DNA of 64,000 bases from assembly GCF_055900595.2 (NCBI RefSeq), contig NZ_CM148325.1. One strand, 5' to 3'. The position numbers and the translations under genes are program-made. Each line of letters starts with the position of its first letter. Position 1 is the stretch's first letter. Below the pieces are notes generated by a model. It had not been told where the DNA came from, did not search any database, and worked only from the letters and a program-made list of their open reading frames with translations. This document shows positions 1 to 56,067 of the stretch, one piece after another.

Positions 1-159
1 TGCCCGCCTAACGCCTTTAATTCCGGCACCGATTTATTATTACTGGAACCAGGAAAAACGCATCGCCTGTTTTTTAATATTCACGGGCAGCACAATTAAT
101 TTCATTAAGAAAAAAACGAGATCATTGTTTAGGGTTGTATTTACACAACAGGAAATATT

Positions 160-1035
160 ATGGACTTTTTTACGTTATTTTCGCCAGATGGGGCCATGCT
201 GGAAACAAACGTGGTATGTATCGTTATCGCGTTGATGTTTCTTTATACCTTTGTGGGGATATGCGCGGGATTTGGTGGCGGTTTAACCACCATGCCACTC
301 GTCACGTTAATGCTCCCCGTAAAAATGGCAACACCACTTTCGGTAATTGTCGGCACCGCAACCGCCTTGTACGCCACCTGGCTATCACGCAAAGAAACGG
401 ATTGGCGCTCGGCAATGGTGCTGATTATTTTCTCATTTTTGGGAATACCCGTCGGTTTATATGCGCTGTCGTATTTACCCGACCATTTTATGAAAGTGGG
501 CTTAGGTGGATTTCTTATCCTCTACTCCTTTTACAGCATGTTTATTCCTCGCTTGCCGATTTATGACCGTAACTGGATCGCCGCACCTATCGGCGCAGTA
601 GCTGGCGCATTAGGCGCGGCGTTCTCAACCAACGGGCCGCCGATGGTTATCTACGGGATGCTACGTAACTTAGGTCCGGCGGCATTTCGCGGCACACTGA
701 ACGCCTTCTTCACCGCAAACAACATCGCGGTGATCGGCGGGCTGGCGACCAGCGGAATTTTGACTGTTTCTATCTTTAAACTGGTGCTGTTTTGTATTCC
801 CACCATGATCCTCGGTTCACTGATTGGACAATATGTGCATAAACGCATTTCGGTCAAAGTGTTTCGTGTGATGGTCTTTTTATTGTTGATTGCCTCCGGT
901 TCTATGTTGATAAAAGGTGCGTTGGGAATTCCCGCTGCTGCCGCACTTCTGCCTCCGTTTACCTTGTTAGTTATACTGCAACTGGCATTTGGTAAAAAAG
1001 TGGCGGCAATCCGCCGGGCTGAAGAAAGTAAATAA
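160..1035 (+). CDS. TauE/SafE (DUF81) family membrane anion exporter, sulfite/sulfonate-exporter-like
   Basis: 291-aa hydrophobic ORF with two internal halves, each carrying a Gly-rich helix motif (AGFGGG near the N-terminus; GAVAGALGAAFSTNGPP in the second half). AGGA lies 7 nt upstream of the ATG. An internal alternative start is possible. Confidence 0.6.
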   Translation: MDFFTLFSPDGAMLETNVVCIVIALMFLYTFVGICAGFGGGLTTMPLVTLMLPVKMATPLSVIVGTATALYATWLSRKETDWRSAMVLIIFSFLGIPVGLYALSYLPDHFMKVGLGGFLILYSFYSMFIPRLPIYDRNWIAAPIGAVAGALGAAFSTNGPPMVIYGMLRNLGPAAFRGTLNAFFTANNIAVIGGLATSGILTVSIFKLVLFCIPTMILGSLIGQYVHKRISVKVFRVMVFLLLIASGSMLIKGALGIPAAAALLPPFTLLVILQLAFGKKVAAIRRAEESK

Positions 1036-1141
1036 TCATTATGCGGGTTTTAATTTATACCTTCACACATTCTTTAATTAATGAAACCTGTAATAACAGG
1101 ATGGCATGAAATATTAGTTTTATACTCTATGGAGATTATTT

Positions 1142-3178
1142 ATGGATACGCCACGCCCACAGTTATTAGATTTTCAATTTCATCAGAATAACGACAGTTT
1201 TACTCTACGTTTTCAAGACCGTCTTATTTTAATCCATAGCAAAGATAATCCTTGCTTATCGATTGGCTCAGGTATAGCGGATATCGATATGTTCCGCGGT
1301 AATTTCAGCATTAAAGATAAATTGCAGGAGAAAATTGCGCTGACCGACGCCATCGTCAGCCAGTCACCGGATGGCTGGTTAATCCATTTCTGCCGTGGTT
1401 CTGACATTAGCGCCACGCTGCATATCTCTACTGACGAACAAGGCCGTTTAGTGCTGAAACTGCAAAACGATGATCGTCACCATAACCGCATCTGGCTGCG
1501 TCTCGCCGCACAACCAGAGGACCATATCTACGGCTGCGGCGAACAATTCTCCTACTTTGATCTGCGCGGCAAACCGTTCCCGCTATGGACCAGTGAACAA
1601 GGCGTTGGTCGCAACAAACAAACCTATGTCACCTGGCAGGCCGACTGCAAAGAGAACGCGGGCGGCGACTATTACTGGACTTTCTTCCCGCAGCCTACTT
1701 TTGTCAGCACGCAGAAGTATTACTGCCATGTCGATAACAGCTGCTATATGAACTTCGACTTCAGTGCTCCGGAATACCATGAACTGGCATTGTGGGAAGA
1801 CAATGCCACCCTGCGTTTTGAATGTGCGGACACATACATCTCCCTGTTGGAAAAATTAACCGCCCTGCTGGGACGTCAGCCAGAACTGCCCGACTGGATT
1901 TATGACGGGGTAACGCTAGGTATTCAGGGCGGGACAGATGTATGCCAGAAGAAACTGGACACCATGCGTAACGCGGGCGTGAAGGTCAACGGCATCTGGG
2001 CGCAGGACTGGTCCGGGATCCGTATGACCTCTTTTGGCAAACGTGTGATGTGGAACTGGAAGTGGAACAGTGAAAACTACCCACAGTTAGATTCCCGCAT
2101 CAAGCAATGGAAAGAAGAAGGCGTGCAGTTCCTCGCCTACATCAACCCGTATGTTGCCAGCGATAAAGATCTCTGCGAAGAAGCGGCGCAACATGGCTAT
2201 CTGGCAAAAGATGCCTCTGGCGGTGACTATCTGGTGGAATTTGGGGAGTTTTACGGCGGCGTTGTCGATTTGACCAATCCTGAAGCCTATTCCTGGTTTA
2301 AAGAGGTCATCAAGAAAAACATGATCGAATTGGGCTGCGGCGGCTGGATGGCAGATTTTGGCGAATATTTGCCGACCGATACGTATCTGCATAACGGCGT
2401 TAGCGCCGAAATTATGCATAACGCCTGGCCCGCACTGTGGGCGAAATGTAACTACGAAGCCCTTGAAGAAACGGGCAAGCTTGGCGAGATCCTTTTCTTT
2501 ATGCGCGCCGGTTCTACCGGTAGCCAGAAATACTCCACCATGATGTGGGCGGGCGACCAGAACGTCGACTGGAGTCTGGACGATGGCCTGGCGTCGGTTG
2601 TTCCGGCGGCGCTCTCGCTGGCGATGACCGGGCATGGCCTGCATCACAGTGACATTGGCGGTTACACCACCCTGTTTGAGATGAAGCGCAGCAAAGAGCT
2701 GCTGCTGCGCTGGTGCGATTTCAGCGCCTTCACGCCGATGATGCGCACCCACGAAGGTAACCGTCCTGGCGACAACTGGCAGTTTGACGGCGACGCGGAA
2801 ACCATCGCCCATTTTGCCCGTATGACCACCGTCTTCACCACCCTGAAACCTTACCTCAAAGACGCCGTCGCGCAGAACGCGAAGTCCGGTCTGCCCGTTA
2901 TGCGCCCGCTGTTCCTGCATTACGAAGACGATGCACACACCTACACCCTGAAATATCAGTACCTGCTGGGCCGCGACATTCTGGTCGCTCCGGTGCACGA
3001 GCAAGGTCGCAGCGACTGGACGCTCTATCTGCCAGAGGATAACTGGGTCCACACCTGGAGCGGAGAAACCTTCCACGGCGGAGAAGTCACCGTTGAAGCG
3101 CCCATCGGCAAACCGCCGGTCTTTTATCGCGCCGACAGCGAATGGGCTGCACTGTTCGCCTCGTTAAAAAGCATCTAA
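1142..3178 (+). CDS. yihQ: Sulfoquinovosidase (GH31 alpha-glucosidase family)
   Basis: 678-aa ORF matching my recollection of E. coli YihQ in length and sequence; GGAG precedes the ATG. Confidence 0.9.
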   Translation: MDTPRPQLLDFQFHQNNDSFTLRFQDRLILIHSKDNPCLSIGSGIADIDMFRGNFSIKDKLQEKIALTDAIVSQSPDGWLIHFCRGSDISATLHISTDEQGRLVLKLQNDDRHHNRIWLRLAAQPEDHIYGCGEQFSYFDLRGKPFPLWTSEQGVGRNKQTYVTWQADCKENAGGDYYWTFFPQPTFVSTQKYYCHVDNSCYMNFDFSAPEYHELALWEDNATLRFECADTYISLLEKLTALLGRQPELPDWIYDGVTLGIQGGTDVCQKKLDTMRNAGVKVNGIWAQDWSGIRMTSFGKRVMWNWKWNSENYPQLDSRIKQWKEEGVQFLAYINPYVASDKDLCEEAAQHGYLAKDASGGDYLVEFGEFYGGVVDLTNPEAYSWFKEVIKKNMIELGCGGWMADFGEYLPTDTYLHNGVSAEIMHNAWPALWAKCNYEALEETGKLGEILFFMRAGSTGSQKYSTMMWAGDQNVDWSLDDGLASVVPAALSLAMTGHGLHHSDIGGYTTLFEMKRSKELLLRWCDFSAFTPMMRTHEGNRPGDNWQFDGDAETIAHFARMTTVFTTLKPYLKDAVAQNAKSGLPVMRPLFLHYEDDAHTYTLKYQYLLGRDILVAPVHEQGRSDWTLYLPEDNWVHTWSGETFHGGEVTVEAPIGKPPVFYRADSEWAALFASLKSI

Positions 3179-3223
3179 TCACGTCCGCCCGTGGGGAAAC
3201 TCACGGGCACAGGGAGAACAACG

Positions 3224-4609
3224 ATGAGTCACATCACAACGGAAGATCCGGCTACTTTACGCCTGCCCTTTAAAGAGAAACTCTCTTACGGTATCGGCGA
3301 TCTGGCCTCTAACATCCTGCTGGATATCGGCACGCTTTATCTTTTGAAGTTTTATACCGACGTTCTGGGGCTGCCCGGTACCTATGGCGGCATTATCTTT
3401 TTGATTTCGAAGTTCTTTACTGCGTTTACCGATATGGGTACCGGCATCATGCTCGATTCCCGACGCAAGATCGGTCCAAAAGGTAAGTTCCGTCCTTTTA
3501 TTCTGTATGCGTCATTCCCGGTCACCTTACTGGCGATCGCCAACTTTGTCGGCACACCGTTTGATGTCACCGGTAAAACGGTGATGGCCACTATCCTGTT
3601 TATGCTCTACGGGCTGTTTTTCAGCATGATGAACTGCTCTTATGGCGCAATGGTCCCCGCTATTACCAAAAACCCCAACGAACGCGCATCACTGGCGGCA
3701 TGGCGTCAGGGTGGCGCTACATTGGGCCTGCTGCTTTGTACGGTGGGATTCGTGCCGGTTATGAATCTTATCGAGGGTAATCAGCAACTTGGCTATATCT
3801 TCGCCGCCACGCTGTTTTCACTGTTCGGCCTGCTGTTTATGTGGATCTGCTATTCGGGCGTGAAAGAGCGTTATGTCGAAACGCAACCTGCAAATCCGGC
3901 GCAAAAGCCAGGCTTGTTGCAGTCTTTCCGCGCAATTGCCGGTAACCGCCCGCTGTTCATTTTGTGCATTGCTAACCTCTGTACCTTAGGGGCATTTAAC
4001 GTCAAGCTCGCCATTCAGGTCTATTACACCCAGTACGTGCTTAACGATCCCATCCTGTTGTCATATATGGGATTTTTCAGCATGGGCTGTATTTTCATCG
4101 GCGTGTTCCTGATGCCTGGTGCAGTCAGACGTTTTGGTAAGAAGAAGGTCTATATCGGCGGCCTGCTGATTTGGGTGCTGGGCGATCTGCTCAACTATTT
4201 CTTCGGCGGCGGCTCGGTCAGTTTTGTGGCGTTCTCCTGCCTGGCATTCTTCGGCTCGGCGTTTGTTAACAGCCTGAACTGGGCACTGGTTTCCGACACC
4301 GTCGAGTACGGCGAGTGGCGCACCGGCGTTCGTTCGGAAGGTACGGTCTACACCGGCTTCACCTTCTTTCGCAAAGTATCTCAGGCGCTGGCAGGTTTCT
4401 TCCCAGGCTGGATGCTGACGCAAATCGGCTATGTGCCAAACGTGGCGCAGGCTGACCATACCATCGAAGGTTTACGCCAGCTGATCTTCATCTACCCAAG
4501 CGCACTGGCGGTAGTCACCATTGTTACGATGGGTTGCTTCTACAGTCTGAACGAGAAAATGTACGTCCGCATTGTTGAAGAAATAGAAGCCCGTAAACGC
4601 ACGGCATAA
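3224..4609 (+). CDS. yihP: GPH-family sugar:cation symporter (putative DHPS/sulfoquinovose transporter)
   Basis: Start placed at internal ATG (MSHITTEDP) preceded by GGGAG; 461 aa, multi-TM, paralogous to the next gene. Confidence 0.85.
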   Translation: MSHITTEDPATLRLPFKEKLSYGIGDLASNILLDIGTLYLLKFYTDVLGLPGTYGGIIFLISKFFTAFTDMGTGIMLDSRRKIGPKGKFRPFILYASFPVTLLAIANFVGTPFDVTGKTVMATILFMLYGLFFSMMNCSYGAMVPAITKNPNERASLAAWRQGGATLGLLLCTVGFVPVMNLIEGNQQLGYIFAATLFSLFGLLFMWICYSGVKERYVETQPANPAQKPGLLQSFRAIAGNRPLFILCIANLCTLGAFNVKLAIQVYYTQYVLNDPILLSYMGFFSMGCIFIGVFLMPGAVRRFGKKKVYIGGLLIWVLGDLLNYFFGGGSVSFVAFSCLAFFGSAFVNSLNWALVSDTVEYGEWRTGVRSEGTVYTGFTFFRKVSQALAGFFPGWMLTQIGYVPNVAQADHTIEGLRQLIFIYPSALAVVTIVTMGCFYSLNEKMYVRIVEEIEARKRTA

Positions 4610-4617
4610 ATAATAAA

Positions 4618-4636
4618 CAACGCCCTGCGGGGCGTT
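4618..4636 (+). terminator. Short GC stem-loop between yihP and yihO (weak terminator/attenuator)
   Basis: aacgccctgcggggcgtt inverted repeat immediately after the yihP stop; no strong T-tract follows. Confidence 0.3.
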
Positions 4637-4649
4637 ATAAGGAGTGATT

Positions 4650-6053
4650 ATGTCTGACCATAATCCACTGACATTAAAACTGAATCTGCGGGAAAAAATC
4701 GCTTATGGCATGGGCGACGTCGGTTCGAATTTAATGCTTAGCATCGGCACTCTGTATCTCCTCAAATTTTATACCGATGAATTAGGGATGCCTGCTTACT
4801 ATGGCGGGATTATCTTTCTGGTGGCAAAATTCTTTACCGCGTTTACCGATATGCTCACCGGATTTTTACTCGACTCGCGGAAAAATATTGGGCCTAAAGG
4901 CAAATTTCGTCCCTTTATTTTATATGCAGCGGTTCCGGCGGCGTTAATTGCAACGCTCCAGTTTATCGCCACCACTTTTAGTTTGCCGATTAAAACGACG
5001 ATTGCCACCGCGCTGTTTATGATGTTTGGACTTTCATACAGTCTGATGAACTGCTCGTATGGCGCGATGATTCCAGCAATTACCAAAAACCCCAATGAGC
5101 GCGCGCAGCTTGCGGCTTACCGCCAGGGTGGTGCAACCATAGGGCTATTGATTTGTACCGTAGCATTTATTCCACTGCAGTCGCTTTTTTCTGACTCCAC
5201 TGTCGGTTATGCCTGCGCGGCACTGATGTTCTCCATTGGTGGCTTTATTTTTATGATGCTGTGCTACAGAGGCGTCAAAGAGCATTATGTGGACACGACG
5301 CCAACCGGACATAAAGCCAGTATTCTCAAATTTTTTTGCGCGATATTTCGTAATCCGCCATTGCTGGTTTTATGCATTGCTAACCTGTGTACCCTGGCGG
5401 CATTTAATATCAAACTGGCAATTCAGGTCTATTACACCCAGTATGTGCTGAATGATATTAATTTATTGTCGTGGATGGGATTCTTCAGTATGGGATGCAT
5501 CCTCATCGGCGTATTGCTGGTGCCATTAACTGTAAAATGTTTTGGTAAAAAACAGGTTTATTTAGCTGGCATGGTGCTGTGGGCGGTGGGGGATATCCTG
5601 AATTATTTCTGGGGCAGTAACTCTTTCACTTTCGTCATGTTCTCTTGTGTCGCCTTTTTTGGTACGGCCTTTGTGAACAGCCTGAACTGGGCGTTAGTTC
5701 CTGACACCGTAGATTACGGTGAATGGAAAACCGGTATTCGTGCCGAAGGTTCTGTTTATACTGGTTATACCTTCTTTCGTAAAATTTCTGCCGCACTTGC
5801 TGGCTTCTTGCCAGGCATTATGCTGACGCAAATCGGTTATGTTCCCAACATCGCGCAAAGCGATGCAACATTACAGGGTTTGCGTCAGCTCATTTTTATT
5901 TGGCCTTGTGCGCTGGCGATAATTGCTGCATTGACGATGGGATTCTTTTACACGCTCAATGAAAAACGTTTTGCGTTAATTATTGAGGACATCAACCAAC
6001 GTAAAAATAAAGAGATTGAGACAAAAGAAAAAACTGCTTCCGTAACGTTATAA
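4650..6053 (+). CDS. yihO: GPH-family sulfoquinovose transporter
   Basis: 467 aa from ATG at 4650 (MSDHNPL) with AAGGAG 6 nt upstream; the ORF track begins at an in-frame GTG at 4644. Confidence 0.85.
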   Translation: MSDHNPLTLKLNLREKIAYGMGDVGSNLMLSIGTLYLLKFYTDELGMPAYYGGIIFLVAKFFTAFTDMLTGFLLDSRKNIGPKGKFRPFILYAAVPAALIATLQFIATTFSLPIKTTIATALFMMFGLSYSLMNCSYGAMIPAITKNPNERAQLAAYRQGGATIGLLICTVAFIPLQSLFSDSTVGYACAALMFSIGGFIFMMLCYRGVKEHYVDTTPTGHKASILKFFCAIFRNPPLLVLCIANLCTLAAFNIKLAIQVYYTQYVLNDINLLSWMGFFSMGCILIGVLLVPLTVKCFGKKQVYLAGMVLWAVGDILNYFWGSNSFTFVMFSCVAFFGTAFVNSLNWALVPDTVDYGEWKTGIRAEGSVYTGYTFFRKISAALAGFLPGIMLTQIGYVPNIAQSDATLQGLRQLIFIWPCALAIIAALTMGFFYTLNEKRFALIIEDINQRKNKEIETKEKTASVTL

Positions 6054-6120
6054 ATGTCAATAGCCGCTATTTCCATCCTGATGGGTGGCGGCCCCCCTAC
6101 GTTAAAAAAATGGACTTATT

Positions 6121-6813
6121 ATGAAAAAGATTAATGCAATAATTTTATTATCTTCTCTGACCTCTGCCTCGGTATTTGCTGGCGCATACGTCGAAAACAG
6201 GGAGGCATATAATCTCGCCTCCGATCAGGGCGAGGTTATGCTACGTGTGGGTTATAACTTCGATATGGGCGCGGGTATCATGTTAACCAATACCTACAAC
6301 TTTCAGCGCGAAGATGAACTAAAACATGGATATAACGAAATTGAAGGCTGGTATCCGTTATTTAAACCAACCGATAAATTAACCATCCAGCCCGGTGGAT
6401 TAATTAATGATAAGAGCGCCGGTTCCGGTGGTGCAGTATATCTGGACGTCAACTATAAATTTGTACCATGGTTTAATCTGACAGTGCGAAATCGCTATAA
6501 CCATAATAACTACAGTTCAACAGATTTGAACGGGGAGCTGGATAATAATGACACCTATGAAATTGGTACCTACTGGAATTTCAAAATCACCGATAAATTC
6601 TCCTATACATTTGAGCCACATTATTTTATACGCGTAAATGACTTTAATAGCAGCAATGGAAAAGATCATCATTGGGAAATCACTAATACCTTCCGTTACC
6701 GTATTAATGAACACTGGCTGCCTTATTTCGAATTACGCTGGTTAGACCGCAACGTCGAGCCGTATCACCGCGAGCAAAACCAGATTCGTATCGGAACGAA
6801 GTATTTCTTCTGA
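6121..6813 (+). CDS. ompL: Outer membrane porin L
   Basis: 230-aa ORF with N-terminal signal peptide (MKKINAIILLSSLTSASVFA) and C-terminal aromatic residue typical of beta-barrel proteins. Confidence 0.85.
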   Translation: MKKINAIILLSSLTSASVFAGAYVENREAYNLASDQGEVMLRVGYNFDMGAGIMLTNTYNFQREDELKHGYNEIEGWYPLFKPTDKLTIQPGGLINDKSAGSGGAVYLDVNYKFVPWFNLTVRNRYNHNNYSSTDLNGELDNNDTYEIGTYWNFKITDKFSYTFEPHYFIRVNDFNSSNGKDHHWEITNTFRYRINEHWLPYFELRWLDRNVEPYHREQNQIRIGTKYFF

Positions 6814-7025
6814 TGTGAAAATGTAAAAAGTCGCTGATATGGACTGCCCCCCATAAAGTTGGACAGTTCAGGTTAAGCGGCTTTTTACACAGATATTCAC
6901 AATATAAATAACTCCCCATAATTATATAACCACGTTGATTATAAAATATTCCTCGTCCTCTCTATCAAAGTCATTGACTACCAGGTAAGATCTTTTCCAC
7001 CGCAACACTCACAAGGAATGAGAAA

Positions 7026-7874
7026 ATGGAAAAGAAATTTTTTATGGATTGGGATAATGAAATCCCGCAAGAAGAGTTTATTAACAATATTTTAGCCGAT
7101 GAAGACCTGCCTAAAATCCGCTCTCTGATTATTGGTCGTTGGGGGGAGTGCTGGGATGAGGAAAGTTGCCAACCAATAATCGACATGTTTGTTGAACATG
7201 CCGAACGCTTTGCTCATCTCGAATCCCTATTTATCGGCGATATGGAAAGCGAAGAGTGTGAAATTTCGTGGATAAAACAAGGGGATTATTCTCGTCTGTA
7301 TGCTGCGCTGCCGAACCTCAAAAAGCTGACAATTAAAGGTACTCAGGGCCTGGAACTGGGAGAAATCGCCCATGACAAACTGGAGCATCTGGAAATTATC
7401 TCTGGCGGTACGCCGTGTGACGTGTTCGCCTCATTGCAAAATGCCCAACTGCCTGCGTTAAAAACACTTATCGTTTATATTGGCGTTGAGAATTATGGTT
7501 TTGATGCATCGCTGGATATCGTAATGAAGCTGGCGTCGAAATCCCTCTTCCCGAGCCTGACGCATCTTGGCCTGGTGAACAGCGAAGAGCAAAACGAAAT
7601 CGTCCGCCGCGTGCTGGAAAGCGACATTCTGCCGCAACTGGAAGTGCTGGCACTCTCCTGCGGTACGCTTACCGACGAAGGTGCAGAGCATCTTCTCAAA
7701 CATGCCGATCGCCTTAGCCATCTGAAACTGCTGGATTTGTACCATCATTACCTGACAGAAGAGATGCAGAAAAAACTGCAAAAAACACTGACATGTACTC
7801 TCGAATTATCAGAAGCGCTAACGCCTGAAGTCTATGATGACGAAATTTATATGCATGCGATGTATACCGAATAA
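7026..7874 (+). CDS. Leucine-rich-repeat-like acidic cytoplasmic protein (I recall the family being labelled STM4015-like)
   Basis: 282-aa ORF with no signal peptide; repeated L-P-x-L-K-x-L / L-x-x-L-x-L segments (LPNLKKLTIKG, LEHLEIISGG, LPALKTLIVYIG, FPSLTHLGLVNS, LPQLEVLALSCG, LSHLKLLDL); AAGGA 8 nt upstream of ATG. Confidence 0.7.
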   Translation: MEKKFFMDWDNEIPQEEFINNILADEDLPKIRSLIIGRWGECWDEESCQPIIDMFVEHAERFAHLESLFIGDMESEECEISWIKQGDYSRLYAALPNLKKLTIKGTQGLELGEIAHDKLEHLEIISGGTPCDVFASLQNAQLPALKTLIVYIGVENYGFDASLDIVMKLASKSLFPSLTHLGLVNSEEQNEIVRRVLESDILPQLEVLALSCGTLTDEGAEHLLKHADRLSHLKLLDLYHHYLTEEMQKKLQKTLTCTLELSEALTPEVYDDEIYMHAMYTE

Positions 7875-7934
7875 ATGACATTTATTGGGAGAGAGTCATC
7901 TCTCCCATTATTTATCACAGAAAAGGAATTCTTC

Positions 7935-8921
7935 GTGATTACGCTAATTGGTCATCCTGAAAGCAAACGCACATTTTATTTTTGCCAGGCAGCGTCACGC
8001 TTACAGGAACATATCAACGTAGTGAGCTATGATCAAGCACTTACCCTGCTCTTAAATAAAGGCATGGTAAAAATCGATCCCCCCTTACATCAGGAAACAG
8101 ATATTCGCTTAATTAATACGGTTAGCCAAAACTATATTACTTTTTTACAAAAAATGGCTACCAGAAGGGAGATCCGTTTTATTAACTCACCAGAAGGTAT
8201 TATTCATCTTCTGGATAAACGCCACTGTAAGCAACGATTAGTCGAACACGCGATCCCGACACCGCCAATATTAGCGGATGATATCCGTAGCTACGATCAA
8301 CTGATCGCCTGTATGCGCAGCGAAAAGGTTTATCGCGTGTTTATTAAGCCGAATTTCGGATCAGGGGCCGCCGGGGTGCTGGCTTTGAGTCTACATCCCG
8401 GCGATAACCGTCAGGTGCTTTATTGCGCCATCCAGGTTGCAGGTGACAGGCTGGTGAACAGTAAACATATTATCCGCTATGAAAACAGCGGTGATATTAC
8501 GTTGATTGTGAATGCTATTTTACAACAAGACAATATTATCGAACGCTGGCTGGCAAAAGCCAGAGTGGGCAATAAAAGCTACGATTTACGCATCGTGTAC
8601 GTTAATGGTGAAATCGTCTGGCGGGTTGTCAGAACATCATCACAGCCGATCACCAATTTACATTTACAAAATGAAGCTATCCGTTTTGCCGATCTTAATT
8701 TACCCGTAGAAAAAGTAGCTGAAATTGATACGCTTTGTCTCAACGCCATGACCCTCTATCCGGACGTACACATTGCCGGGCTTGACGTATTACTCACGCA
8801 AAATTTAACACCCTATATTATCGAAATTAACGGCCAGGGCGATCTTATTTATCAGGACACCTGCGAAAAAAACAAAATTTATCAACGCCAGATTCAGGTA
8901 ATGAGAGAACATCATGTATAA
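7935..8921 (+). CDS. ATP-grasp-like protein (I recall the family being labelled STM4014-like)
   Basis: ORF 7875-8921; start placed at in-frame GTG 7935 because AAGGA lies 7 nt upstream, but the ATG at 7875 immediately after the preceding stop is an alternative. The ATP-grasp assignment is by resemblance only. Confidence 0.55.
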   Translation: MITLIGHPESKRTFYFCQAASRLQEHINVVSYDQALTLLLNKGMVKIDPPLHQETDIRLINTVSQNYITFLQKMATRREIRFINSPEGIIHLLDKRHCKQRLVEHAIPTPPILADDIRSYDQLIACMRSEKVYRVFIKPNFGSGAAGVLALSLHPGDNRQVLYCAIQVAGDRLVNSKHIIRYENSGDITLIVNAILQQDNIIERWLAKARVGNKSYDLRIVYVNGEIVWRVVRTSSQPITNLHLQNEAIRFADLNLPVEKVAEIDTLCLNAMTLYPDVHIAGLDVLLTQNLTPYIIEINGQGDLIYQDTCEKNKIYQRQIQVMREHHV

Positions 8922-9786
8922 CGTAACAGACGAAGTACCGGAAAATACCCGCACGGCAATCCATTCCTGCGATGGCGAAATCAATCTGAATGATTTAATT
9001 GCCAGGGAAGCCAATATCCTGTTTGTGGTGCTTGATTCCCTGCGTTTTGATATTGCGTTTCAGGAACAAGAGGCGGGAAATACACCAAATATTAACCGCT
9101 ATGGTCGCTGGATAAAGTGTGAAGCCGCTGGCAATTTTACCTGGCCTTCGCATCATTCGATGTTCTCTGGTTTTATGCCTAAGCCGCTGGAAGCTGCACC
9201 TGGTCATTCAATGCTCTTTTTCCCGAAAGATATTGGTTTAGGTCGTTTAGGGCCAAAAAATGCGTTCGCGTTCAGCGAAGAGACGTGGATTAAAGGGCTG
9301 GAAAACAAAGGTTACCGCACTATCTGCGTGGGTGGCGTCTCCTTTTTTAATAACCGCTCAGGGATGGGAAAAGTGTTCCCGGCGATGTTTAAAGAGAGTT
9401 ACTGGTATCCTAATTTCTCCTGCACGGTGAAAGAGAGCATGGATAATCAGCTCACCTTAATTAACAAAAAGGTGAACGCTGAACAGCCGCTGATGATGTA
9501 TATCAATATCGACACCATTCATTATCCGAATCATTTTTATATTGAAAATGCCAAACCTGGCGATACGGTAGAAACTCACGCCGCTGCCCTGCATTATATT
9601 GATGCCAGAATCGAAAAACTTTTCGATATCTTTCGGCAAACCGGGCGGGAGACGTTAGTTATTCTCTGTTCCGATCATGGCACCTGCTACGGGGAAGACG
9701 GTAAATATTTCCACAGTTTTAACCATCCGATTGTGAATACCGTACCCTATTTTCACTTTGTGTTAGACGGCAAAGACCATGAATAA
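8914..9786 (+). CDS. Alkaline-phosphatase-superfamily metallo-hydrolase (phosphodiesterase/phosphomutase/sulfatase-like core)
   Basis: 290-aa ORF with N-terminal FVVLDSLRFD motif typical of AlkP-core metal-binding enzymes; start overlaps the upstream stop by 8 nt. Confidence 0.7.
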   Translation: MYNVTDEVPENTRTAIHSCDGEINLNDLIAREANILFVVLDSLRFDIAFQEQEAGNTPNINRYGRWIKCEAAGNFTWPSHHSMFSGFMPKPLEAAPGHSMLFFPKDIGLGRLGPKNAFAFSEETWIKGLENKGYRTICVGGVSFFNNRSGMGKVFPAMFKESYWYPNFSCTVKESMDNQLTLINKKVNAEQPLMMYINIDTIHYPNHFYIENAKPGDTVETHAAALHYIDARIEKLFDIFRQTGRETLVILCSDHGTCYGEDGKYFHSFNHPIVNTVPYFHFVLDGKDHE

Positions 9787-11017
9787 TGAATCGATTTATC
9801 AGCAATATATGTACAGTTACCCGCATAAGACCGCTTATCGGGAATTAAACAATATTGCTTTTGCGGATGTGAAATCGCGTATTTACGAGCATAAAACACA
9901 TCTCTATATTCATATGCCTTTTTGCCAGAGCCGCTGCGGGTTTTGTAATCTCTTTACCTGCACGGGGGCAGACAATGCCTTTATCGACAACTACATAGAA
10001 GCAATTATTATCCAGGCCCGGCAAATGCAACTTGCGCCTGTAGACTGGGCCAGTTTTACCATTGGCGGCGGTACGCCACTACTGCTTAATACCGGGCAAC
10101 TGTCACGGTTGTTTCGCGGGGTGTTTGACGAATTACAGGTCGATGCGCAGATTTTTAAGGCAATTGAAACATCGCCTTCCGATACCACCGCCGAAAAGGT
10201 CGCGTTATTGCGCCAGCTTGCGGTAAACCGCGTCAGTATTGGCATTCAGAGTTTTAACGATCTGGAACTTGCCACATTACACCGCCGCCATAGTGCGGAA
10301 AATGCCCATCGGGCGCTGGAGCTACTGCGCAGGGGTAATTTCCCGATAATCAATATTGATATTATTTACGGTATTCCTGGTCAAACAGCCGCAAGTTTAA
10401 TGGCGTCGCTTAATCAAGCATTAGATTATCAGCCTGACGAACTGTTTCTGTACCCGCTATATAACATGCCGCGTCAGCCGGATATGTATAGCCTCTATAT
10501 TGAAGCCCGCGATCGCTTATTGCATGAAGGTTATACGCAAACGTCAATGCGCCGTTTTGTGCGGGTGAATAATGATTCGGCGGCTGAAAGTTGTGGCTTT
10601 GAAAATTCGCTGGCGCTTGGCGCGGGCGGGCGCAGTTATCTTGGCAATTTACATTACTGCACGCCGTGGTCGCAAAACCAGCCCGCATCGCGGCAAATTG
10701 TCACGGATTTTATCGCCCGGCCAGATAAGACCCAGATTCACCACGGCTATGTACTTTCACAAGCAGAAATGAAGCGGCGTTTTATTATCAAGAATCTCTT
10801 TTTCTATAAGGGGCTTTCGTTACGGGATTATCAGCACCAGTTCTTCTCTGAGGTATTAAGCGATTTTCCCCTGCTGGGCGATTTCATCAAACAAGATTAC
10901 TGCCACCAGCAGGATAATCGTATTCTGCTCACCGCGCAGGGTTTAGCGCTTTCGGACCAGCTTGGCCCGCTGTTTATCTCCCCGGAAGTTCGCAGGCTGG
11001 AGACGCATAAACGATGA
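9779..11017 (+). CDS. HemN/HemW-like radical SAM protein
   Basis: 412-aa ORF with YIHMPFCQSRCGFC (C49-x3-C53-x2-C56) radical SAM motif in HemN-like context; start overlaps the upstream stop. Confidence 0.8.
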   Translation: MNNESIYQQYMYSYPHKTAYRELNNIAFADVKSRIYEHKTHLYIHMPFCQSRCGFCNLFTCTGADNAFIDNYIEAIIIQARQMQLAPVDWASFTIGGGTPLLLNTGQLSRLFRGVFDELQVDAQIFKAIETSPSDTTAEKVALLRQLAVNRVSIGIQSFNDLELATLHRRHSAENAHRALELLRRGNFPIINIDIIYGIPGQTAASLMASLNQALDYQPDELFLYPLYNMPRQPDMYSLYIEARDRLLHEGYTQTSMRRFVRVNNDSAAESCGFENSLALGAGGRSYLGNLHYCTPWSQNQPASRQIVTDFIARPDKTQIHHGYVLSQAEMKRRFIIKNLFFYKGLSLRDYQHQFFSEVLSDFPLLGDFIKQDYCHQQDNRILLTAQGLALSDQLGPLFISPEVRRLETHKR

Positions 11018-11871
11018 CGCTCAAGCAGATCCAGACGCTGATTTATCGCGGCGAGATAAAGTCGTGTAATTATCGCTGTGGTTATTGCCCTTTTCATAAA
11101 CAAGACCGCAATGATAAACAGCAGGATGAAGTGGCATTATGGCGCATGGTTGAACATTTACCGGCGCAGGGTTCACCATTAAATGTATTTATTACGCCCT
11201 ACGGCGAAGCATTGCGTTATCGTTATTATATGGCGGCGATGGCGGAAATCAGCCGCTATTCCCATGTGCAGGCGGTGGGTATTCAGACCAACGCCTCTTT
11301 TAATTTATCCACCTTAGTCGCGACTTTTCAGCACTCTCAGGGCGATTTAGCAAAGCTGCGGCTGTGGTGTTCGTTTCATCCTTCCCAGGCAAGTAAAGAA
11401 GTTTTCCTTAAACAGTTACTGGCAATTAAGGACACGGGGATTACCTGTTCTGTGGGGGCCGTCGCCAGCGTAGCCGACTATGACGAATTACAGTGGTTAC
11501 GCGCGCATCTTCCTCCCGATATCTATTTCTGGCTAAACGCCAATGAGCGCGATAAAAGGCCCACCAGCGACGAAAGAAATAGCCAGTTTCAGTTGCTGGA
11601 CCCGCTTTATTATCTGGAAACCAGCCTCTGGCCTGCCAATGTCGAGTTTTGTCTGGGCGGCAAAAAGAGCGTGTTTATGAATGCTGATGGCGATCTCTTC
11701 GCCTGTAATATCAGCAAAATTAAGATTGGCAATTTATATCAACAGCAACTTTCATCTCCGTCTTGTATGTCCAGGCACTGTCACTGTTATCTGGCTTATC
11801 ACCTGCGTGAGGATATTCCGGCCCTCTCACAATTTGATGCTGAACGCTGCTTTCGGATCTTCTCGTTATGA
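11014..11871 (+). CDS. Small radical SAM protein with C-terminal Cys/His cluster
   Basis: 285-aa ORF; CNYRCGYC (C18-x3-C22-x2-C25) near N-terminus; C231, C251, C256, C258 near C-terminus; ATGA overlap with upstream stop. Confidence 0.75.
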   Translation: MTLKQIQTLIYRGEIKSCNYRCGYCPFHKQDRNDKQQDEVALWRMVEHLPAQGSPLNVFITPYGEALRYRYYMAAMAEISRYSHVQAVGIQTNASFNLSTLVATFQHSQGDLAKLRLWCSFHPSQASKEVFLKQLLAIKDTGITCSVGAVASVADYDELQWLRAHLPPDIYFWLNANERDKRPTSDERNSQFQLLDPLYYLETSLWPANVEFCLGGKKSVFMNADGDLFACNISKIKIGNLYQQQLSSPSCMSRHCHCYLAYHLREDIPALSQFDAERCFRIFSL

Positions 11872-12563
11872 TCTGGCGGTTAATCGCGCTCGATTTAGAC
11901 GGCACATTGCTGAACAGCAAGAAGATGATTTCCCCTGCGTCTGTTTCGGCACTGCAAAGCGCACAACAGGCAGGTGTGAAAATTATCCTCGCCACCGGAC
12001 GTTCGCACAGCGAAGCCCTGCCTTATTACCAACAATTGCAGTTAACCGAGCCGATGATTTGCTGTAACGGCAGCTATCTTTATCATCCGCGCCAGCGGCA
12101 AATATTGCGTCCGCTGGCGCTTGATATCCACAAGGTGGAAAGGCTACGACTCTGGTTTTCACAACAAATATTGCAGCCAAATATTTATACGTACGATGAT
12201 TTTGTTTTGCAGATTAGCCTGATACACCGCAAGGCTTCGTTATTGCGCCAGACAGAGGAATTTGCCCGACAAGAATTATCGCTGGCCTGTAGCTGGTCCT
12301 GGCATCATCAACTGGATATTACACAGGTGGGGTGTGAGAAAGGCAAAAGTCTGGCCTGGTATGCCCGACAGCAAAATATCGTGCTGGATGAAATCATCGC
12401 CTTTGGCGATAACGATAATGATGCGGGGATGCTGCGGATGGTAGGCAAAGGGATTGCGATGGGCAATGGCAGTTCGCTGGCAAAAGTCAGTGCTGACCGC
12501 GTTATTGGTCACAACAACACAGATGCTATTGCGGATTTTCTTGATGCGCAGGGTTTCAGATGA
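11868..12563 (+). CDS. HAD-superfamily Cof-type phosphatase
   Basis: 231-aa ORF with N-terminal ALDLDGTLL motif (HAD motif I) and GDNDND near the C-terminus; ATGA overlap with upstream stop. Confidence 0.8.
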   Translation: MIWRLIALDLDGTLLNSKKMISPASVSALQSAQQAGVKIILATGRSHSEALPYYQQLQLTEPMICCNGSYLYHPRQRQILRPLALDIHKVERLRLWFSQQILQPNIYTYDDFVLQISLIHRKASLLRQTEEFARQELSLACSWSWHHQLDITQVGCEKGKSLAWYARQQNIVLDEIIAFGDNDNDAGMLRMVGKGIAMGNGSSLAKVSADRVIGHNNTDAIADFLDAQGFR

Positions 12564-12564
12564 C

Positions 12565-12600
12565 GCCTGATGCGATGCTGACGCATCTTATCAGGCCTAC
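12565..12600. repeat. REP (repetitive extragenic palindromic) element
   Basis: gcctgatgcgatgctgacgcatcttatcaggcctac, the typical enterobacterial REP palindrome. Confidence 0.75.
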
Positions 12601-12604
12601 AAAA

Positions 12605-12637
12605 GCAAAAAACCTGCCATCGCTGGCAGGTTTTTTA
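12605..12637. terminator. Bidirectional rho-independent terminator (typA and the upstream operon)
   Basis: A-tract, cctgccatcgctggcagg hairpin, then TTTTTT, between convergent genes. Confidence 0.8.
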
Positions 12638-12653
12638 TGACTAAAAAACGAAA

Positions 12654-14477
12654 TTAATCGTCTTTCGGTGCGCGGTTGGCGCGACGACGATCGTTTTCCG
12701 TCAGGTGACGTTTACGAATACGGATAGAGGTCGGAGTCACTTCTACCAGTTCGTCATCATCGATGAACTCCAGCGCTTGTTCCAGCGTCATGCGGATAGG
12801 CGGAACCAGAACAACGGCTTCGTCAGTACCGGAAGCACGCATGTTGGTCAGTTTCTTACCGGTCAGACAGTTTACAGTCAGGTCGTTAGAACGGCTGTGA
12901 ATACCGATAATCTGACCTTCGTAAACTTCTGCACCGTGACCGAGGAACAGCTTACCGCGATCCTGCAGACCGAACAGCGCGAACGCGACCGCTTTACCCT
13001 GACCGTTAGAGATCAGTACGCCGTTCTGACGCTGACCCACTTCACCCGGACGCACGTCGTCGTAGTGGCTGAAGGTGGAGTACAACAGACCCGTACCAGA
13101 GGTCATGGTCATGAACTCAGAACGGAAGCCAATCAGACCACGGCTTGGGATCACGTAGTCGAGACGTACGCGGCCTTTACCGTCTGGATTCATGTTTTTC
13201 AGGTCGCCTTTACGTTCGCCCAGCGCCTGCATCACAGAACCCTGATGCTGTTCTTCAACGTCCAGCGTCACGTTTTCATACGGCTCTTGTTTACGACCGT
13301 CGATTTCACGGAAGATAACTTTCGGACGGGATACCGCCAGTTCGAAACCTTCACGACGCATGTTTTCGATCAGAACAGACAGGTGCAGTTCGCCACGACC
13401 AGAAACGCGGAACGCATCGGCGTCTTCAGTTTCTTCTACGCGCAGCGCAACGTTGTGTACCAGTTCTTTGTTCAGACGATCCAGAATCTGACGAGACGTT
13501 ACGAACTTACCTTCTTTACCGCAGAACGGCGAGGTGTTAACGCAGAAGAACATAGAAACGGTCGGCTCATCAACGGAGAGTGCCGGCAGCGCTTCAACGT
13601 TTTGCGTGTCGCAAACGGTGTCAGAAATGTTCAGTTCGCCCAGGCCCGTGATCGCCACGATATCGCCAGCTTCCGCCAGATCGGTTTCGATACGTTCCAG
13701 ACCGAGGTGGCCCAGCACTTTACCGACTTTCGCGTTGCGGGTTTTGCCTTCGCTATCGATGATAGTAACTTGCTGGTTCGGCTTCACTTTACCGCGCTTG
13801 ATGCGGCCAATGCCGATAACGCCAACATAGCTGTTGTAATCGAGCTGAGAAATCTGCATCTGGAACGGACCGTCAAGGTCAACGTCCGGCGCAGGAACGT
13901 GGTCAACAATTGCCTGATACAGCGGGGTCATGTCTTCCGCCATATCTTCGTGGTCCAGACCGGCGATACCGTTCAGCGCAGAAGCGTAAACGATCGGGAA
14001 GTCCAGCTGCTCGTCGGTCGCGTCGAGGTTAACGAACAGGTCGAATACCTGATCCACAACCCAGTCAGGACGCGCGCCAGGGCGGTCAACTTTGTTGATA
14101 ACAACAATTGGCTTCAGGCCGTAAGCAAACGCTTTTTTGGTTACGAAGCGCGTTTGCGGCATCGGGCCGTCAAATGCGTCAACCACCAGCAGCACTGAGT
14201 CTACCATGGACATTACACGTTCAACTTCACCACCGAAGTCGGCGTGCCCCGGGGTATCAACGATGTTGATACGGTAATCATTCCATTTGATAGCGGTGTT
14301 TTTCGCGAGGATGGTAATCCCACGCTCTTTCTCCAAATCGTTGGAGTCCATCACGCGCTCTTGGGTTTCGGCACGAGAGTCGAACGTACCGGATTGTTGG
14401 AGCAGCTTGTCTACCAGGGTGGTTTTACCATGGTCTACGTGCGCGATGATGGCGATATTACGCAATTTTTCGATCAC
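12654..14477 (-). CDS. typA: Ribosome-associated translational GTPase BipA/TypA
   Basis: 607-aa ORF with G-domain motifs ([18 protein letters not shown]). Confidence 0.95.
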
Positions 14478-14626
14478 AACTTTGCCTCAGGCATTAGAAA
14501 TAGCGCGTTATTGTACACGGATTAATCGCACTACAAAACAGGATCACAAACATCCTCCGCAAACAAGTATTGCAGAGTCCCTTTGTGATCGCTTTCACGG
14601 AGCATAAAAAGGGTTATCCAAAGGTC

Positions 14627-14720
14627 ATTGCACCAATATGGTGCTTAATGTTTCCATTGAAGCACTATATTGGTGCAATATTCACATCGTGGTGCAGCCC
14701 TTTTGCACGATGGTGCGCAT
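14627..14720 (+). promoter_or_regulatory. NtrC (NRI) enhancer binding sites upstream of glnA
   Basis: Repeated TGCACC-N5-GGTGCA-like dyads (tgcaccaatatggtgc, gcactatattggtgca, ggtgcagcccttttgcac). Confidence 0.7.
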
Positions 14721-14749
14721 GATAACGCCTTTTAGGGGCAATTTAAAAG

Positions 14750-14766
14750 TTGGCACAGTTTTCGCT
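14750..14766 (+). promoter_or_regulatory. Sigma-54 promoter glnAp2
   Basis: tTGGCACagttttCGCt matches the -24 GG / -12 GC sigma-54 consensus about 85 bp upstream of glnA. Confidence 0.8.
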
Positions 14767-14849
14767 TTATCTTTTTTACGGCGACACGGCCAAAATAATT
14801 GCAGATTTCGTTACCACGACGACCATGACCAATCCAGGAGAGTTAAAGT

Positions 14850-55276: not shown

Positions 55277-56044
55277 ATGGCAGATACCTCTTCAACCACC
55301 GCTGGCGCACAAACGTTATTACGCGGGCTGGCGGTTCTTAATGCTGTTTATAACGGCTGCCATGACCTGAAAAGTATCGGCGAGTTCACCGGCACGACCC
55401 GGAGCACAACCCATCGTTTAGTCACCGTTCTGGTGGAACAACGCTACCTGCGCCACGTCCCAACGCAGGGCTACCAACTGGGCGCCAAACTGATCGAATT
55501 CGGTGCCAGAGCACTGGAAAGCACCTCGCTGTACGAAGTTGCGCTGCCCGTTTTGCAGCGTCTGGCCCGTTACACCCTGGACACCGTGCATCTGGGGATC
55601 GTTGAAGGCGGCGAAGTGCTGTATCTGGAGAAGATCAACAGTCAGCGTGGGCTGGAAATGCGCTCACGCCCAGGCCATCGCATGCCACTGGCAATCACCG
55701 GCATCGGCAAGGCATTGATCCTCAACCGAACAGAAGAAGAGTGGCGCACGCTGTTTAAGACCTGTGGTGATGAAACAAAACTGGGCACATTTATTCAGAA
55801 CATGCGTCGTTATGCCGCCAGTGGTTTTGCTTTTGATCTGGAAGAGAACGAGCCGACTATCCGTTGCGTTGCAGCGCCGGTTTACAACGCCCGGGATGAA
55901 ATTGTGGCGGCTATTTCTGTCGCCAGTACCACTACGTATATGTCACTGGCGCGTCTGGAAGAACTGGCACCTTACGTCAAATCCTGTGCAGAAGAGATAT
56001 CCGCTGAACTGGGCTGGGGTAAGCACGTCCACAAAAATAAATAA
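55277..56044 (+). CDS. IclR-family transcriptional regulator
   Basis: 255 aa from MADTSS with CAGGAG upstream; N-terminal HTH and C-terminal effector domain. Confidence 0.85.
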   Translation: MADTSSTTAGAQTLLRGLAVLNAVYNGCHDLKSIGEFTGTTRSTTHRLVTVLVEQRYLRHVPTQGYQLGAKLIEFGARALESTSLYEVALPVLQRLARYTLDTVHLGIVEGGEVLYLEKINSQRGLEMRSRPGHRMPLAITGIGKALILNRTEEEWRTLFKTCGDETKLGTFIQNMRRYAASGFAFDLEENEPTIRCVAAPVYNARDEIVAAISVASTTTYMSLARLEELAPYVKSCAEEISAELGWGKHVHKNK

Positions 56045-56067
56045 ACCATGACTAAAGGAAACGGCTA

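What the first reader, a model, noticed from the sequence alone, without database searches (positions are those of the whole stretch)
160..1035. TauE/SafE-type exporter gene immediately upstream of the sulfoquinovosidase gene
In the K-12 sulfoglycolysis cluster as I remember it, yihR lies next to yihQ. Here the neighbour is a DUF81/TauE-SafE-like membrane protein, a family linked to sulfite and sulfonate export. If it is co-regulated with yihQ, the sulfoquinovose pathway in this genome may export a different sulfur end-product or have a rearranged gene set. Only about 1.1 kb upstream of yihQ is visible, so the wider context is unknown.
Basis: partly seen in the sequence, partly recalled or inferred. 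Interest (0 to 1): 0.45.

Follow-up and report, generated by a model that had tools for sequence, protein, structure and literature searches.

The report
Extra sulfonate-transporter gene in sulfoquinovose cluster
This E. coli strain carries an eleventh gene, a TauE/TSUP-type membrane transporter, between yihR and yihQ of its sulfoquinovose-degradation cluster; the gene is absent from K-12 but common elsewhere, always sits in sulfoquinovose clusters, and is most likely an exporter of the sulfonate waste product.

Summary
Window 160..1035 (+) encodes an intact 291-aa TauE/SafE (TSUP, PF01925) membrane protein, 106 bp upstream of yihQ.

yihR is not displaced: its 3' end is at window 1..99, so the order is yihR-TSUP-yihQ-yihP-yihO-ompL. 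This is the K-12 gene set plus one gene.

- **Frequency.** K-12 has 151 bp of unrelated DNA where this strain has 993 bp. The gene is in 1,296 of 5,426 complete E. coli genomes, including O157:H7. It is at the same position in Salmonella.
- **Context.** Orthologues (65-99% identity) in 28 species all lie inside a sulfoglycolysis cluster: 17 sulfo-EMP (yih) and 11 sulfo-ED-type. The gap to the upstream gene is 2-47 bp in 21 of them.
- **Family.** It is one tight clade; the nearest other TSUPs are at most 38% identical. dN/dS is 0.01-0.04.
- **End product.** No desulfonating enzyme is linked, and an SLA-reductase gene is in all 28 clusters. A change of end product to sulfite is therefore unsupported.

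The most likely role is an SQ-co-expressed exporter of DHPS/sulfolactate (inferred, untested). The literature I could read is K-12-centred and does not mention the gene.

Verdict: real, ordinary in kind, moderately interesting.

The parts
1..99 (+). 3' end of yihR (sulfoquinovose mutarotase / aldose-1-epimerase), stop codon at 97-99
   Evidence: Translation ends ...FNIHGQHN*. 90% nucleotide identity to the K-12 yihR end. Annotated yihR in the identical genome.
91..1083 (.). Segment with no counterpart in K-12: 993 bp here against 151 bp of unrelated sequence in K-12. It carries the whole transporter gene.
   Evidence: blastn of the K-12 yihR-yihQ junction against the window: homology ends at about window 90 and resumes at about 1084.
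100..159 (+). yihR-TSUP intergenic region (60 bp) with Shine-Dalgarno AGGA at 150-153. No terminator-like hairpin on the + strand.
160..1035 (+). Sulfoglycolysis-associated TSUP (TauE/SafE family) transporter gene, 291 aa, intact
   Evidence: Pfam PF01925 E 2.4e-35. AlphaFold pLDDT 92.6 with a 4+4 helix repeat plus one extra C-terminal helix. dN/dS 0.01-0.04. 28 of 28 orthologues lie in sulfoglycolysis clusters.
1036..1141 (+). TSUP-yihQ intergenic region (106 bp). Contains the palindrome CCTGTAATAACAGG at 1087-1100, which K-12 also has upstream of yihQ.
1142..3178 (+). yihQ, sulfoquinovosidase (GH31)
3224..4609 (+). yihP, GPH/MFS_2 transporter (the literature's putative DHPS exporter)
   Evidence: 64% identical to YihO.
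4650..6053 (+). yihO, GPH/MFS_2 transporter (putative SQ importer)
6121..6813 (+). ompL, KdgM-family porin, last gene of the cluster

Best explanation
The gene encodes an inner-membrane secondary transporter of the TSUP (TauE/SafE, DUF81) family that belongs to the sulfoquinovose (SQ) catabolic cluster. It is most likely transcribed together with yihR and yihQ when SQ derepresses the cluster. It most likely exports the C3-sulfonate end product: 2,3-dihydroxypropanesulfonate (DHPS) from YihU, and possibly sulfolactate. The cell keeps the DHAP half of SQ and discards the sulfonated half. Shown here: family membership, an intact gene under strong purifying selection, strict genomic linkage to two different sulfoglycolysis pathways, and an operon-like arrangement. 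Inferred: the substrate, the direction of transport and SQ induction. K-12 and about two thirds of cluster-bearing E. coli lack the gene. In E. coli it is therefore an accessory, and probably ancestral, component and not an essential one.
For: (1) Pfam TauE E 2.4e-35. The AlphaFold model has pLDDT 92.6 with two 4-helix repeats, each containing a broken helix at the conserved GFGGG (37-41) or NGPP (158-161) motif.
(2) In all 28 species where the scan found an orthologue (65-99% identity), it lies inside a sulfoglycolysis cluster. 17 are sulfo-EMP (yih) clusters and 11 are sulfo-ED-type clusters. Hafnia and Salmonella were confirmed independently.
(3) What the two pathways share is the substrate SQ and a C3-sulfonate product. 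All 28 clusters carry an SLA-reductase gene, either yihU or a YihU-like gene.
(4) The ED-type clusters contain only one other transporter (SSF family). Two yih clusters (L021, L031) contain only a YihO-like permease plus this gene and no YihP. In those, an importer plus this protein is the whole linked transport set.
(5) Same strand, with 2-47 bp to the upstream gene in 21 of 28 loci.
(6) Enterobacter sp. ENT03 has both clusters side by side with a single copy of this gene.
(7) dN/dS is 0.013-0.039 within Escherichia, and the gene is 291 codons in all eight sequences compared.
(8) TauE-type proteins are the predicted SL/DHPS exporters in other sulfoglycolysis clusters: SftE (PMC7491151) and Arthrobacter AK04 (PMC8873060).
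(9) The 50%-identity representative library holds only one full-length relative above 38% identity. The two next-best TSUPs whose context I read are in unrelated contexts. The clade is therefore specialised.
Against: There is no experimental evidence for the substrate, the direction of transport or induction. K-12 excretes DHPS without this gene (PMC6278857), so another exporter exists, either YihP or an unlinked one. 2,634 genomes have the K-12-type junction without the gene. The family is named partly after an uptake system (TsaS), so import is not excluded. In this window the flanking gaps (60 and 106 bp) are longer than in other genera. No motif resembling the TGTCA/TGACA boxes of the yihV-yihU regulatory region was seen next to the gene. 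In the nearest complete genome yihT carries an internal stop, so the pathway may be broken in this lineage.
Confidence: 0.6

Rival explanations
1. It is an uptake permease for SQ, an SQ glycoside or another sulfonate, supplementing YihO/YihP or the SSF transporter.
For: The TSUP family takes its name from 4-toluenesulfonate uptake (PMC8873060). Strict linkage to SQ clusters fits an importer as well as an exporter.
Against: Every cluster already encodes a sugar-type cation symporter (GPH YihO/YihP or SSF) suited to SQ import. In K-12 a yihO deletion abolishes growth on SQ (PMC6278857). A roughly 250-residue TSUP core has been proposed so far for small anions, not sugars.
Confidence: 0.14
2. It is a sulfite exporter, as the RefSeq product name suggests. 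Strains that carry it would desulfonate SQ carbon and excrete sulfite.
For: C. necator TauE was described as a sulfite exporter (title of Weinitschke 2007, cited in PMC8873060). The RefSeq product name says the same.
Against: No C-S-cleaving enzyme was seen among the cluster genes identified in the 28 loci, nor in the annotation that covers the rest of the window; unidentified flanking ORFs in other species were not examined. The gene set equals that of K-12 plus this gene, and yihU is retained. The product name is a family-level label, and no NCBIfam model matches the protein.
Confidence: 0.06
3. It is a relief valve that expels a toxic sulfonated intermediate, such as sulfolactaldehyde or excess SQ/sulfofructose, and not the end product.
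For: It is accessory in E. coli. Linkage to both pathways also fits SLA, which both pathways produce.
Against: There is no specific evidence. Conservation as the only non-symporter transporter in ED-type clusters argues for a routine role and not an emergency one.
Confidence: 0.1
4. It is a passenger gene with no role in SQ metabolism, kept at this spot by chance or hitch-hiking.
For: Two thirds of cluster-bearing E. coli do without it. One strain has replaced it with an unrelated ORF.
Against: 28 of 28 linkage across two unrelated cluster types and three gene positions. dN/dS is 0.01-0.04. The spacing is operon-like.
Confidence: 0.04

Closest known systems
TauE-type predicted sulfolactate/DHPS exporters of other sulfoglycolysis clusters (SftE of the sulfo-TAL pathway in Bacillus aryabhattai and gut Firmicutes, PMC7491151; the TauE permease of Arthrobacter sp. 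AK04 sulfo-EMP, PMC8873060; from my own memory, not checked here, the TauE-like exporter drawn in the Pseudomonas putida SQ1 sulfo-ED cluster, Felux 2015)
   Same: Same Pfam family (PF01925). Encoded inside an SQ catabolic cluster next to an SQ importer. Proposed to export the C3-sulfonate product. None has been characterised biochemically.
   Different: This clade is separate in sequence. The only full-length relative above 38% identity among 1.84 billion cluster representatives belongs to the clade itself. It has an extra C-terminal helix (residues 264-290) that the roughly 240-aa relatives lack. It sits in the E. coli/Salmonella yih cluster, whose published description has ten genes and assigns export to YihP. 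Direct sequence comparison with SftE or the P. putida protein was not done because I had no sequences.
TauE of Cupriavidus necator H16 and SafE (founding members of the TauE/SafE family; TSUP family, TC 2.A.102)
   Same: Family-level homology. An anionic sulfur compound is the presumed substrate, and the presumed direction is export.
   Different: Those proteins are linked to C2-sulfonate (taurine, sulfoacetate) degradation, which releases sulfite. Here no desulfonation step is encoded. Orthology was not tested.
YihP of E. coli K-12 (annotated 'putative 2,3-dihydroxypropane-1-sulfonate export protein')
   Same: Same cluster, and the same proposed job of DHPS export.
   Different: A different fold and family (GPH/MFS_2, 12 TM). 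YihP is 64% identical to the presumed SQ importer YihO. Its exporter role is a proposal ('most likely', PMC6278857). Two yih clusters have the TSUP gene and no yihP.
Long and short yih cassettes of E. coli (Kaznadzey et al. 2025, PMC12608037)
   Same: The same locus and the same theme: the yih cassette is structurally polymorphic within E. coli.
   Different: That survey used K-12 genes as queries and reports only the long (10-gene) and short (yihTUVW) forms. A text search of the paper finds no mention of TauE, SafE or an exporter. The form here is a third one: long plus the TSUP gene, 11 genes, in 1,296 of about 4,000 long-cassette genomes.

Membership tests
TSUP / TauE-SafE family (Pfam PF01925, DUF81) | Significant full-length match to the family HMM | tested here: met
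   E 2.4e-35, residues 23-248, model positions 2-235 of 237.
TSUP / TauE-SafE family (Pfam PF01925, DUF81) | Eight transmembrane helices arranged as two 4-helix repeats (family description recalled from Shlykov 2012, cited in PMC8873060) | tested here: met
   AlphaFold model, pLDDT 92.6. Helices 16-36, 40-49/54-75, 82-105, 108-128, then 138-155, 159-168/173-198, 203-227, 232-255, plus an extra helix at 264-290. BLASTP of the two halves against each other shows no significant similarity, so the repeat is seen only in the predicted structure.
TSUP / TauE-SafE family (Pfam PF01925, DUF81) | Transport of sulfite or an organosulfonate | not testable with these tools
   No experimental data. There is no solved structure of any relative.
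Sulfo-EMP (yih) gene cluster | Encoded within the cluster, on the same strand as the catabolic genes | tested here: met
   Lies between yihR and yihQ. The same position is found in Salmonella, Citrobacter, Mangrovibacter, Superficieibacter and E. whittamii. It lies between yihQ and yihP/yihO in 11 further species.
Sulfo-EMP (yih) gene cluster | Member of the published 10-gene K-12 cluster (ompL, yihO-W) | tested here: not met
   K-12 has a 198-bp yihR-yihQ spacer with no remnant of the gene.
Sulfo-EMP (yih) gene cluster | Induced by sulfoquinovose / repressed by CsqR | not testable with these tools
   Only indirect evidence: operon-like spacing in other genera. No obvious operator-like motif was found next to the gene in this strain.
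Orthologue of characterised TauE (C. necator) or SafE | Close sequence relationship to the characterised protein | tested here: inconclusive
All full-length relatives outside the clade are at most 38% identical, so orthology to any characterised TSUP is unlikely.

The most novel reading that the evidence does not exclude
This TSUP protein is the ancestral, dedicated C3-sulfonate (DHPS/sulfolactate) exporter of enterobacterial sulfoglycolysis. YihO and YihP, which are 64% identical paralogues of a sugar-symporter family, would then both be importers, for example of SQ and SQ-glycerol. On this reading K-12, the model organism for the pathway, is a natural deletion variant that exports DHPS by a stand-in, so the textbook assignment 'YihP = DHPS exporter' would be wrong.
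Probability: 0.3. Interest if true: 0.55.

Novelty: new member of a known kind. Interest (0 to 1): 0.4.

Why it matters
[quoted passage not shown] Excreted DHPS and sulfolactate feed sulfite-respiring gut bacteria such as Bilophila and Desulfovibrio, which make H2S (PMC6278857, PMC7491151). The pathway model rests on K-12, which lacks this gene. About a third of E. coli with the full cluster (O157:H7 among them) and Salmonella carry it. A tight, easily recognised transporter clade found only in SQ clusters is a clean candidate for the exporter. It gives a simple experiment: delete or complement the gene with and without yihP and measure DHPS efflux. It also adds a third, overlooked structural form of the E. 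coli yih cassette.

Tried and rejected
- **Remnant in K-12.** I looked for a remnant of the gene in the K-12 yihR-yihQ spacer. blastn with word size 7 found nothing beyond chance.
- **Shared operator.** I looked for a motif shared between the yihV-yihU regulatory region and the two spacers flanking the gene. Only AT-rich chance matches turned up, and no TGTCA/TGACA-type boxes. Alignments of the spacers across genera show only the RBS and start codon conserved.
- **Promoter/terminator scan.** The consensus scan of 1..1300 gave nothing informative. There was no + strand promoter, and the + strand 'terminators' lie inside the coding sequence.
- **NCBIfam.** No model matches.
- **PDB.** No relative by sequence. 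By fold, nothing at E <= 0.001; the best match is BacA/UppP at TM 0.43-0.45.
- **Internal repeat.** BLASTP of the two halves was not significant.
- **Next-nearest TSUPs.** The contexts of P0127 and P0131 are unrelated to sulfonates.
- **SLA dehydrogenase in ED clusters.** A search for an Aldedh gene next to the ED-type clusters outside Hafnia gave no hits with a partial query. This is inconclusive because the loci end there.
- **Literature.** No held paper mentions a TauE gene in the E. coli or Salmonella yih cluster. Denger 2014 and Felux 2015 are not held, so I cannot exclude that their figures show it.
- **Third common allele rejected.** The MLI104K2-type 720-bp ORF is a one-genome oddity, and the other odd cases are IS insertions.

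Full report
**What is there.** Window 160..1035 (+) is an ATG-initiated ORF of 291 codons that ends in TAA. Its product matches Pfam TauE (PF01925) over almost the whole model, with E 2.4e-35. RefSeq annotates the identical sequence as 'sulfite exporter TauE/SafE family protein'. An AGGA Shine-Dalgarno lies six bases before the ATG. The RBS and the first codons (ATGGAyTTyTT) are conserved in seven other genera, so the start is secure. yihQ (sulfoquinovosidase) begins 106 bp downstream on the same strand, followed by yihP, yihO and ompL.

Window 1..99 translates to ...FNIHGQHN* and is 90% identical to the end of K-12 yihR. yihR has therefore not been replaced; the gene sits between yihR and yihQ. 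The nearest complete genome is NZ_CP098223.1, which is 100% identical over window 1..15142 and 99.96% over the rest. It supplies the missing upstream context in K-12 order: csqR and yihV on one strand, and yihU, yihT, yihS and yihR on the other. The cluster is the K-12 set plus one gene and is not rearranged.

**Comparison with K-12.** K-12 has a 198-bp yihR-yihQ spacer. Homology with the window stops at about position 90 and resumes at about 1084. In between, K-12 has 151 bp of unrelated sequence where the window has 993 bp, and no remnant of the gene is detectable.

**How common the gene is in E. coli.** The counts below come from 5,426 complete E. coli genomes.

| Feature | Genomes |
|---|---|
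| yihS present | 4,017 |
| yihR-yihQ junction present | 4,002 |
| This segment (the TSUP gene) present | 1,296 |
| K-12-type spacer present | 2,634 |

- The genomes without yihS correspond to the 'short' yihTUVW cassette described by Kaznadzey et al. 2025 (PMC12608037).
- Genomes with the gene include O157:H7. The gene covers at least 80% of the query in 1,287 of the 1,296.
- The remaining cases are one-offs: IS insertions, a BL21 spacer deletion, and one strain in which an unrelated 720-bp ORF replaces most of the gene.

The gene is thus in about 24% of all complete genomes and about 32% of those with the long cassette. It is ordinary, but absent from the model strain.

**Selection.** The window allele differs from other E. 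coli alleles and from E. whittamii at 4.6-5.8% of nucleotides. Only 2-6 of these differences are non-synonymous (dN/dS 0.013-0.039, dS 0.19-0.24). All eight sequences compared are 291 codons long. The gene is functional and under strong constraint. The alleles are old: the whole yihQ-ompL block is 93.9% identical to K-12, against 98.8% for the adjacent typA.

**Genomic context in other species.** This is the strongest evidence bearing on function.

- A scan of one genome per species found 28 orthologues at 65-99% identity.
- I annotated their neighbours by BLASTP against the K-12 Yih proteins and against a Hafnia cluster. All 28 lie inside a sulfoglycolysis cluster.
- Seventeen are sulfo-EMP (yih) clusters. 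Six have the order yihR-TSUP-yihQ: E. whittamii, an uncultured enterobacterium, Citrobacter sp., Mangrovibacter, S. diarizonae and Superficieibacter. S. enterica has the same order. Eleven have the order yihQ-TSUP-yihP or yihQ-TSUP-yihO: Kluyvera, Pantoea, Atlantibacter, C. freundii, Lelliottia and others.
- Eleven are sulfo-ED-type clusters. Nine of them have the Hafnia order: LacI regulator, SSF symporter, dehydratase, HpcH aldolase, mutarotase, lactonase, YihU-like reductase and SDR dehydrogenase, with the TSUP gene last. Examples are Mixta, Leminorella, Edwardsiella, Buttiauxella and Vibrio owensii; Hafnia itself is. Aeromonas and the betaproteobacterium Craterilacuibacter carry the core ED genes with a different gene set or order.
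- The gene is always on the same strand as its upstream neighbour. The gap is 2-47 bp in 21 of 28 loci and 45-100 bp in the yihR-TSUP-yihQ type.
- Enterobacter sp. ENT03 has both clusters side by side and only one copy of this gene.

**How isolated the clade is.** HMMER against 1.84 billion 50%-identity representatives found one full-length relative (80% identity) plus fragments. Below that there is a gap down to proteins of about 240 aa at 29-38% identity. The two of those whose context I read are not in sulfonate-related neighbourhoods. No NCBIfam model matches. No PDB entry is related by sequence or convincingly by fold.

**Predicted structure.** An AlphaFold model built on an 80-sequence alignment is confident (pLDDT 92.6, pTM 0.88). 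It shows two four-helix repeats. In each, the second helix is broken after a conserved Gly/Pro motif (GFGGG at 37-41, NGPP at 158-161). There is also an extra C-terminal helix at 264-290 that the shorter relatives lack.

**Likely function.** The two pathways that host the gene share little beyond SQ as substrate, sulfolactaldehyde as intermediate and a C3-sulfonate that must leave the cell. An SLA-reductase gene is present in all 28 clusters.

- Every cluster already has a sugar-type cation symporter (GPH YihO/YihP or SSF) that fits the import role. A yihO deletion in K-12 cannot grow on SQ (PMC6278857).
- In the ED-type clusters, and in two yih clusters that lack yihP (L021, L031), the TSUP protein is the only other linked inner-membrane transporter.
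- TauE-type proteins are the predicted sulfolactate/DHPS exporters in sulfo-TAL and actinobacterial sulfo-EMP clusters (PMC7491151; PMC8873060).

I therefore consider export of DHPS, and possibly sulfolactate, co-expressed with the pathway, the best explanation (confidence about 0.6). Substrate, direction and induction are inferences. Nothing here tests them.

**Why the sulfite idea fails.** The cluster gene set equals that of K-12 plus this one gene, and no C-S-cleaving enzyme is among the cluster genes I identified in the 28 loci. The annotation of the near-identical genome for the rest of the window shows core genes only: glnALG, hemN, polA, an rrn operon, fadBA, tat and ubi. 'Sulfite exporter' in the product name is a family label.

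**Caveats.**
- K-12 excretes DHPS without this gene, so it is not the only route out.
- In this strain the flanking spacers are 60 and 106 bp. I found neither a + strand promoter or terminator nor a motif like the TGTCA/TGACA boxes of the yihV-yihU region.
- In the nearest genome yihT has an internal stop (LKLLVL*RSDE). The pathway may be broken in this lineage; yihT lies outside the window.

**Evolution (tentative).** In a neighbour-joining tree without support values, ED-linked copies are basal and paraphyletic. The EMP-linked copies form two clades that match the two gene positions. This suggests capture of the gene from sulfo-ED clusters by yih clusters. The shared yihR-TSUP-yihQ order in Escherichia, Salmonella and Citrobacter suggests that the K-12 state is a secondary loss.

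**Literature.**
- The papers I could read describe a ten-gene K-12 cluster with YihO and YihP as the permeases and YihP 'most likely' the DHPS exporter (PMC6278857, PMC8006165).
- One states that Salmonella is 'syntenic'. One says that import and export are 'poorly characterized'.
- The 2025 survey of yih cassette variants used K-12 genes as queries and does not mention this gene.
- YihP and YihO are 64% identical, which sits awkwardly with opposite roles for a sugar and a C3 acid.
- I could not read Denger 2014 or Felux 2015. Their comparative figures may show the gene, so I do not claim it is unreported.

**Verdict.** It belongs to a distinct, uncharacterised clade of a known kind: a TauE/TSUP transporter in a sulfoglycolysis cluster. 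It is common outside K-12. It is moderately interesting as the best candidate for the unassigned C3-sulfonate export step, and as a third form of the E. coli yih cassette that the K-12-based survey did not report.

Noticed in passing
window 7026-12563: Between ompL and typA this strain has six genes where K-12 has yihL-yihM-yihN. RefSeq names them STM4015, STM4014 (ATP-grasp), STM4013 (sulfatase-fold hydrolase), STM4012 and STM4011 (two radical SAM proteins) and a Cof-type HAD hydrolase. Salmonella has the same genes next to ompL (L005), whereas E. whittamii has yihN/yihM (L008). Their function is unknown. RefSeq flags STM4015 as frameshifted in the identical genome.
   Followed up: partly
L001 10895-11773 (NZ_CP098223.1; upstream of the window): yihT (sulfofructose-phosphate aldolase) has an internal stop codon (…LKLLVL*RSDE…) in the genome that is 100% identical to window 1-15142. 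The sulfo-EMP pathway may be inactive in this lineage even though the transporter gene is intact.
   Followed up: yes
window 1084-6823 compared with 12607-14884: The yihQ-ompL block is only 93.9% identical to K-12, while the adjacent typA is 98.8% identical. Synonymous divergence between E. coli alleles of the transporter gene is 0.19-0.24. The protein is 99% identical to that of E. whittamii, although the region as a whole is 92.4% identical. The yih locus carries old, mosaic haplotypes.
   Followed up: partly
E. coli complete-genome collection (no window coordinates): yihS, and the yihR-yihQ junction, are found in only about 4,000 of 5,426 complete E. coli genomes. The full cluster is therefore not strictly 'core'. 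This matches the short yihTUVW cassette reported in PMC12608037.
   Followed up: partly
window 100-116 and 1070-1086: A 17-nt imperfect inverted repeat (TTTCATTAAGAAAAAAA / TTCTTTAATTAATGAAA, 82% complementary) lies at the two edges of the segment that K-12 lacks. It is AT-rich and may be chance. It is partly kept in E. whittamii and not in Salmonella.
   Followed up: no
window 1087-1100: The perfect palindrome CCTGTAATAACAGG lies 42 bp upstream of the yihQ start. It is conserved in K-12 and E. whittamii but not in Salmonella or Citrobacter. It may be an Escherichia-specific regulatory site for yihQ.
   Followed up: no
window 3179-3223, 4610-4649 and 6054-6120: G+C-rich hairpins lie in the short yihQ-yihP and yihP-yihO spacers (for example AACGCCCTGCGGGGCGTT), and a GC-rich stretch lies before ompL (sequences). 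They may be intercistronic stabilisers or attenuators.
   Followed up: no
L002 2283-3002 (E. coli MLI104K2): In one genome, a 720-bp hypothetical ORF on the opposite strand replaces most of the transporter gene. Only the last ~118 bp before yihQ (the gene's 3' tip plus the spacer) are kept.
   Followed up: partly
L020 (Enterobacter sp. ENT03) and L018 (Citrobacter amalonaticus): In L020 a sulfo-ED-type cluster and a sulfo-EMP cluster lie next to each other with a single shared TSUP gene, and the EMP cluster has no yihR. L018 combines a sulfo-ED-type cluster with a short yihT-yihU-yihV-csqR set.
   Followed up: no
window about 55277-60716: By mapping to the near-identical genome, an accessory block lies between rmuC and udp. 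It comprises an IclR regulator, 2-dehydro-3-deoxygalactonokinase, KDPGal aldolase and a TctCBA tripartite tricarboxylate transporter.
   Followed up: no
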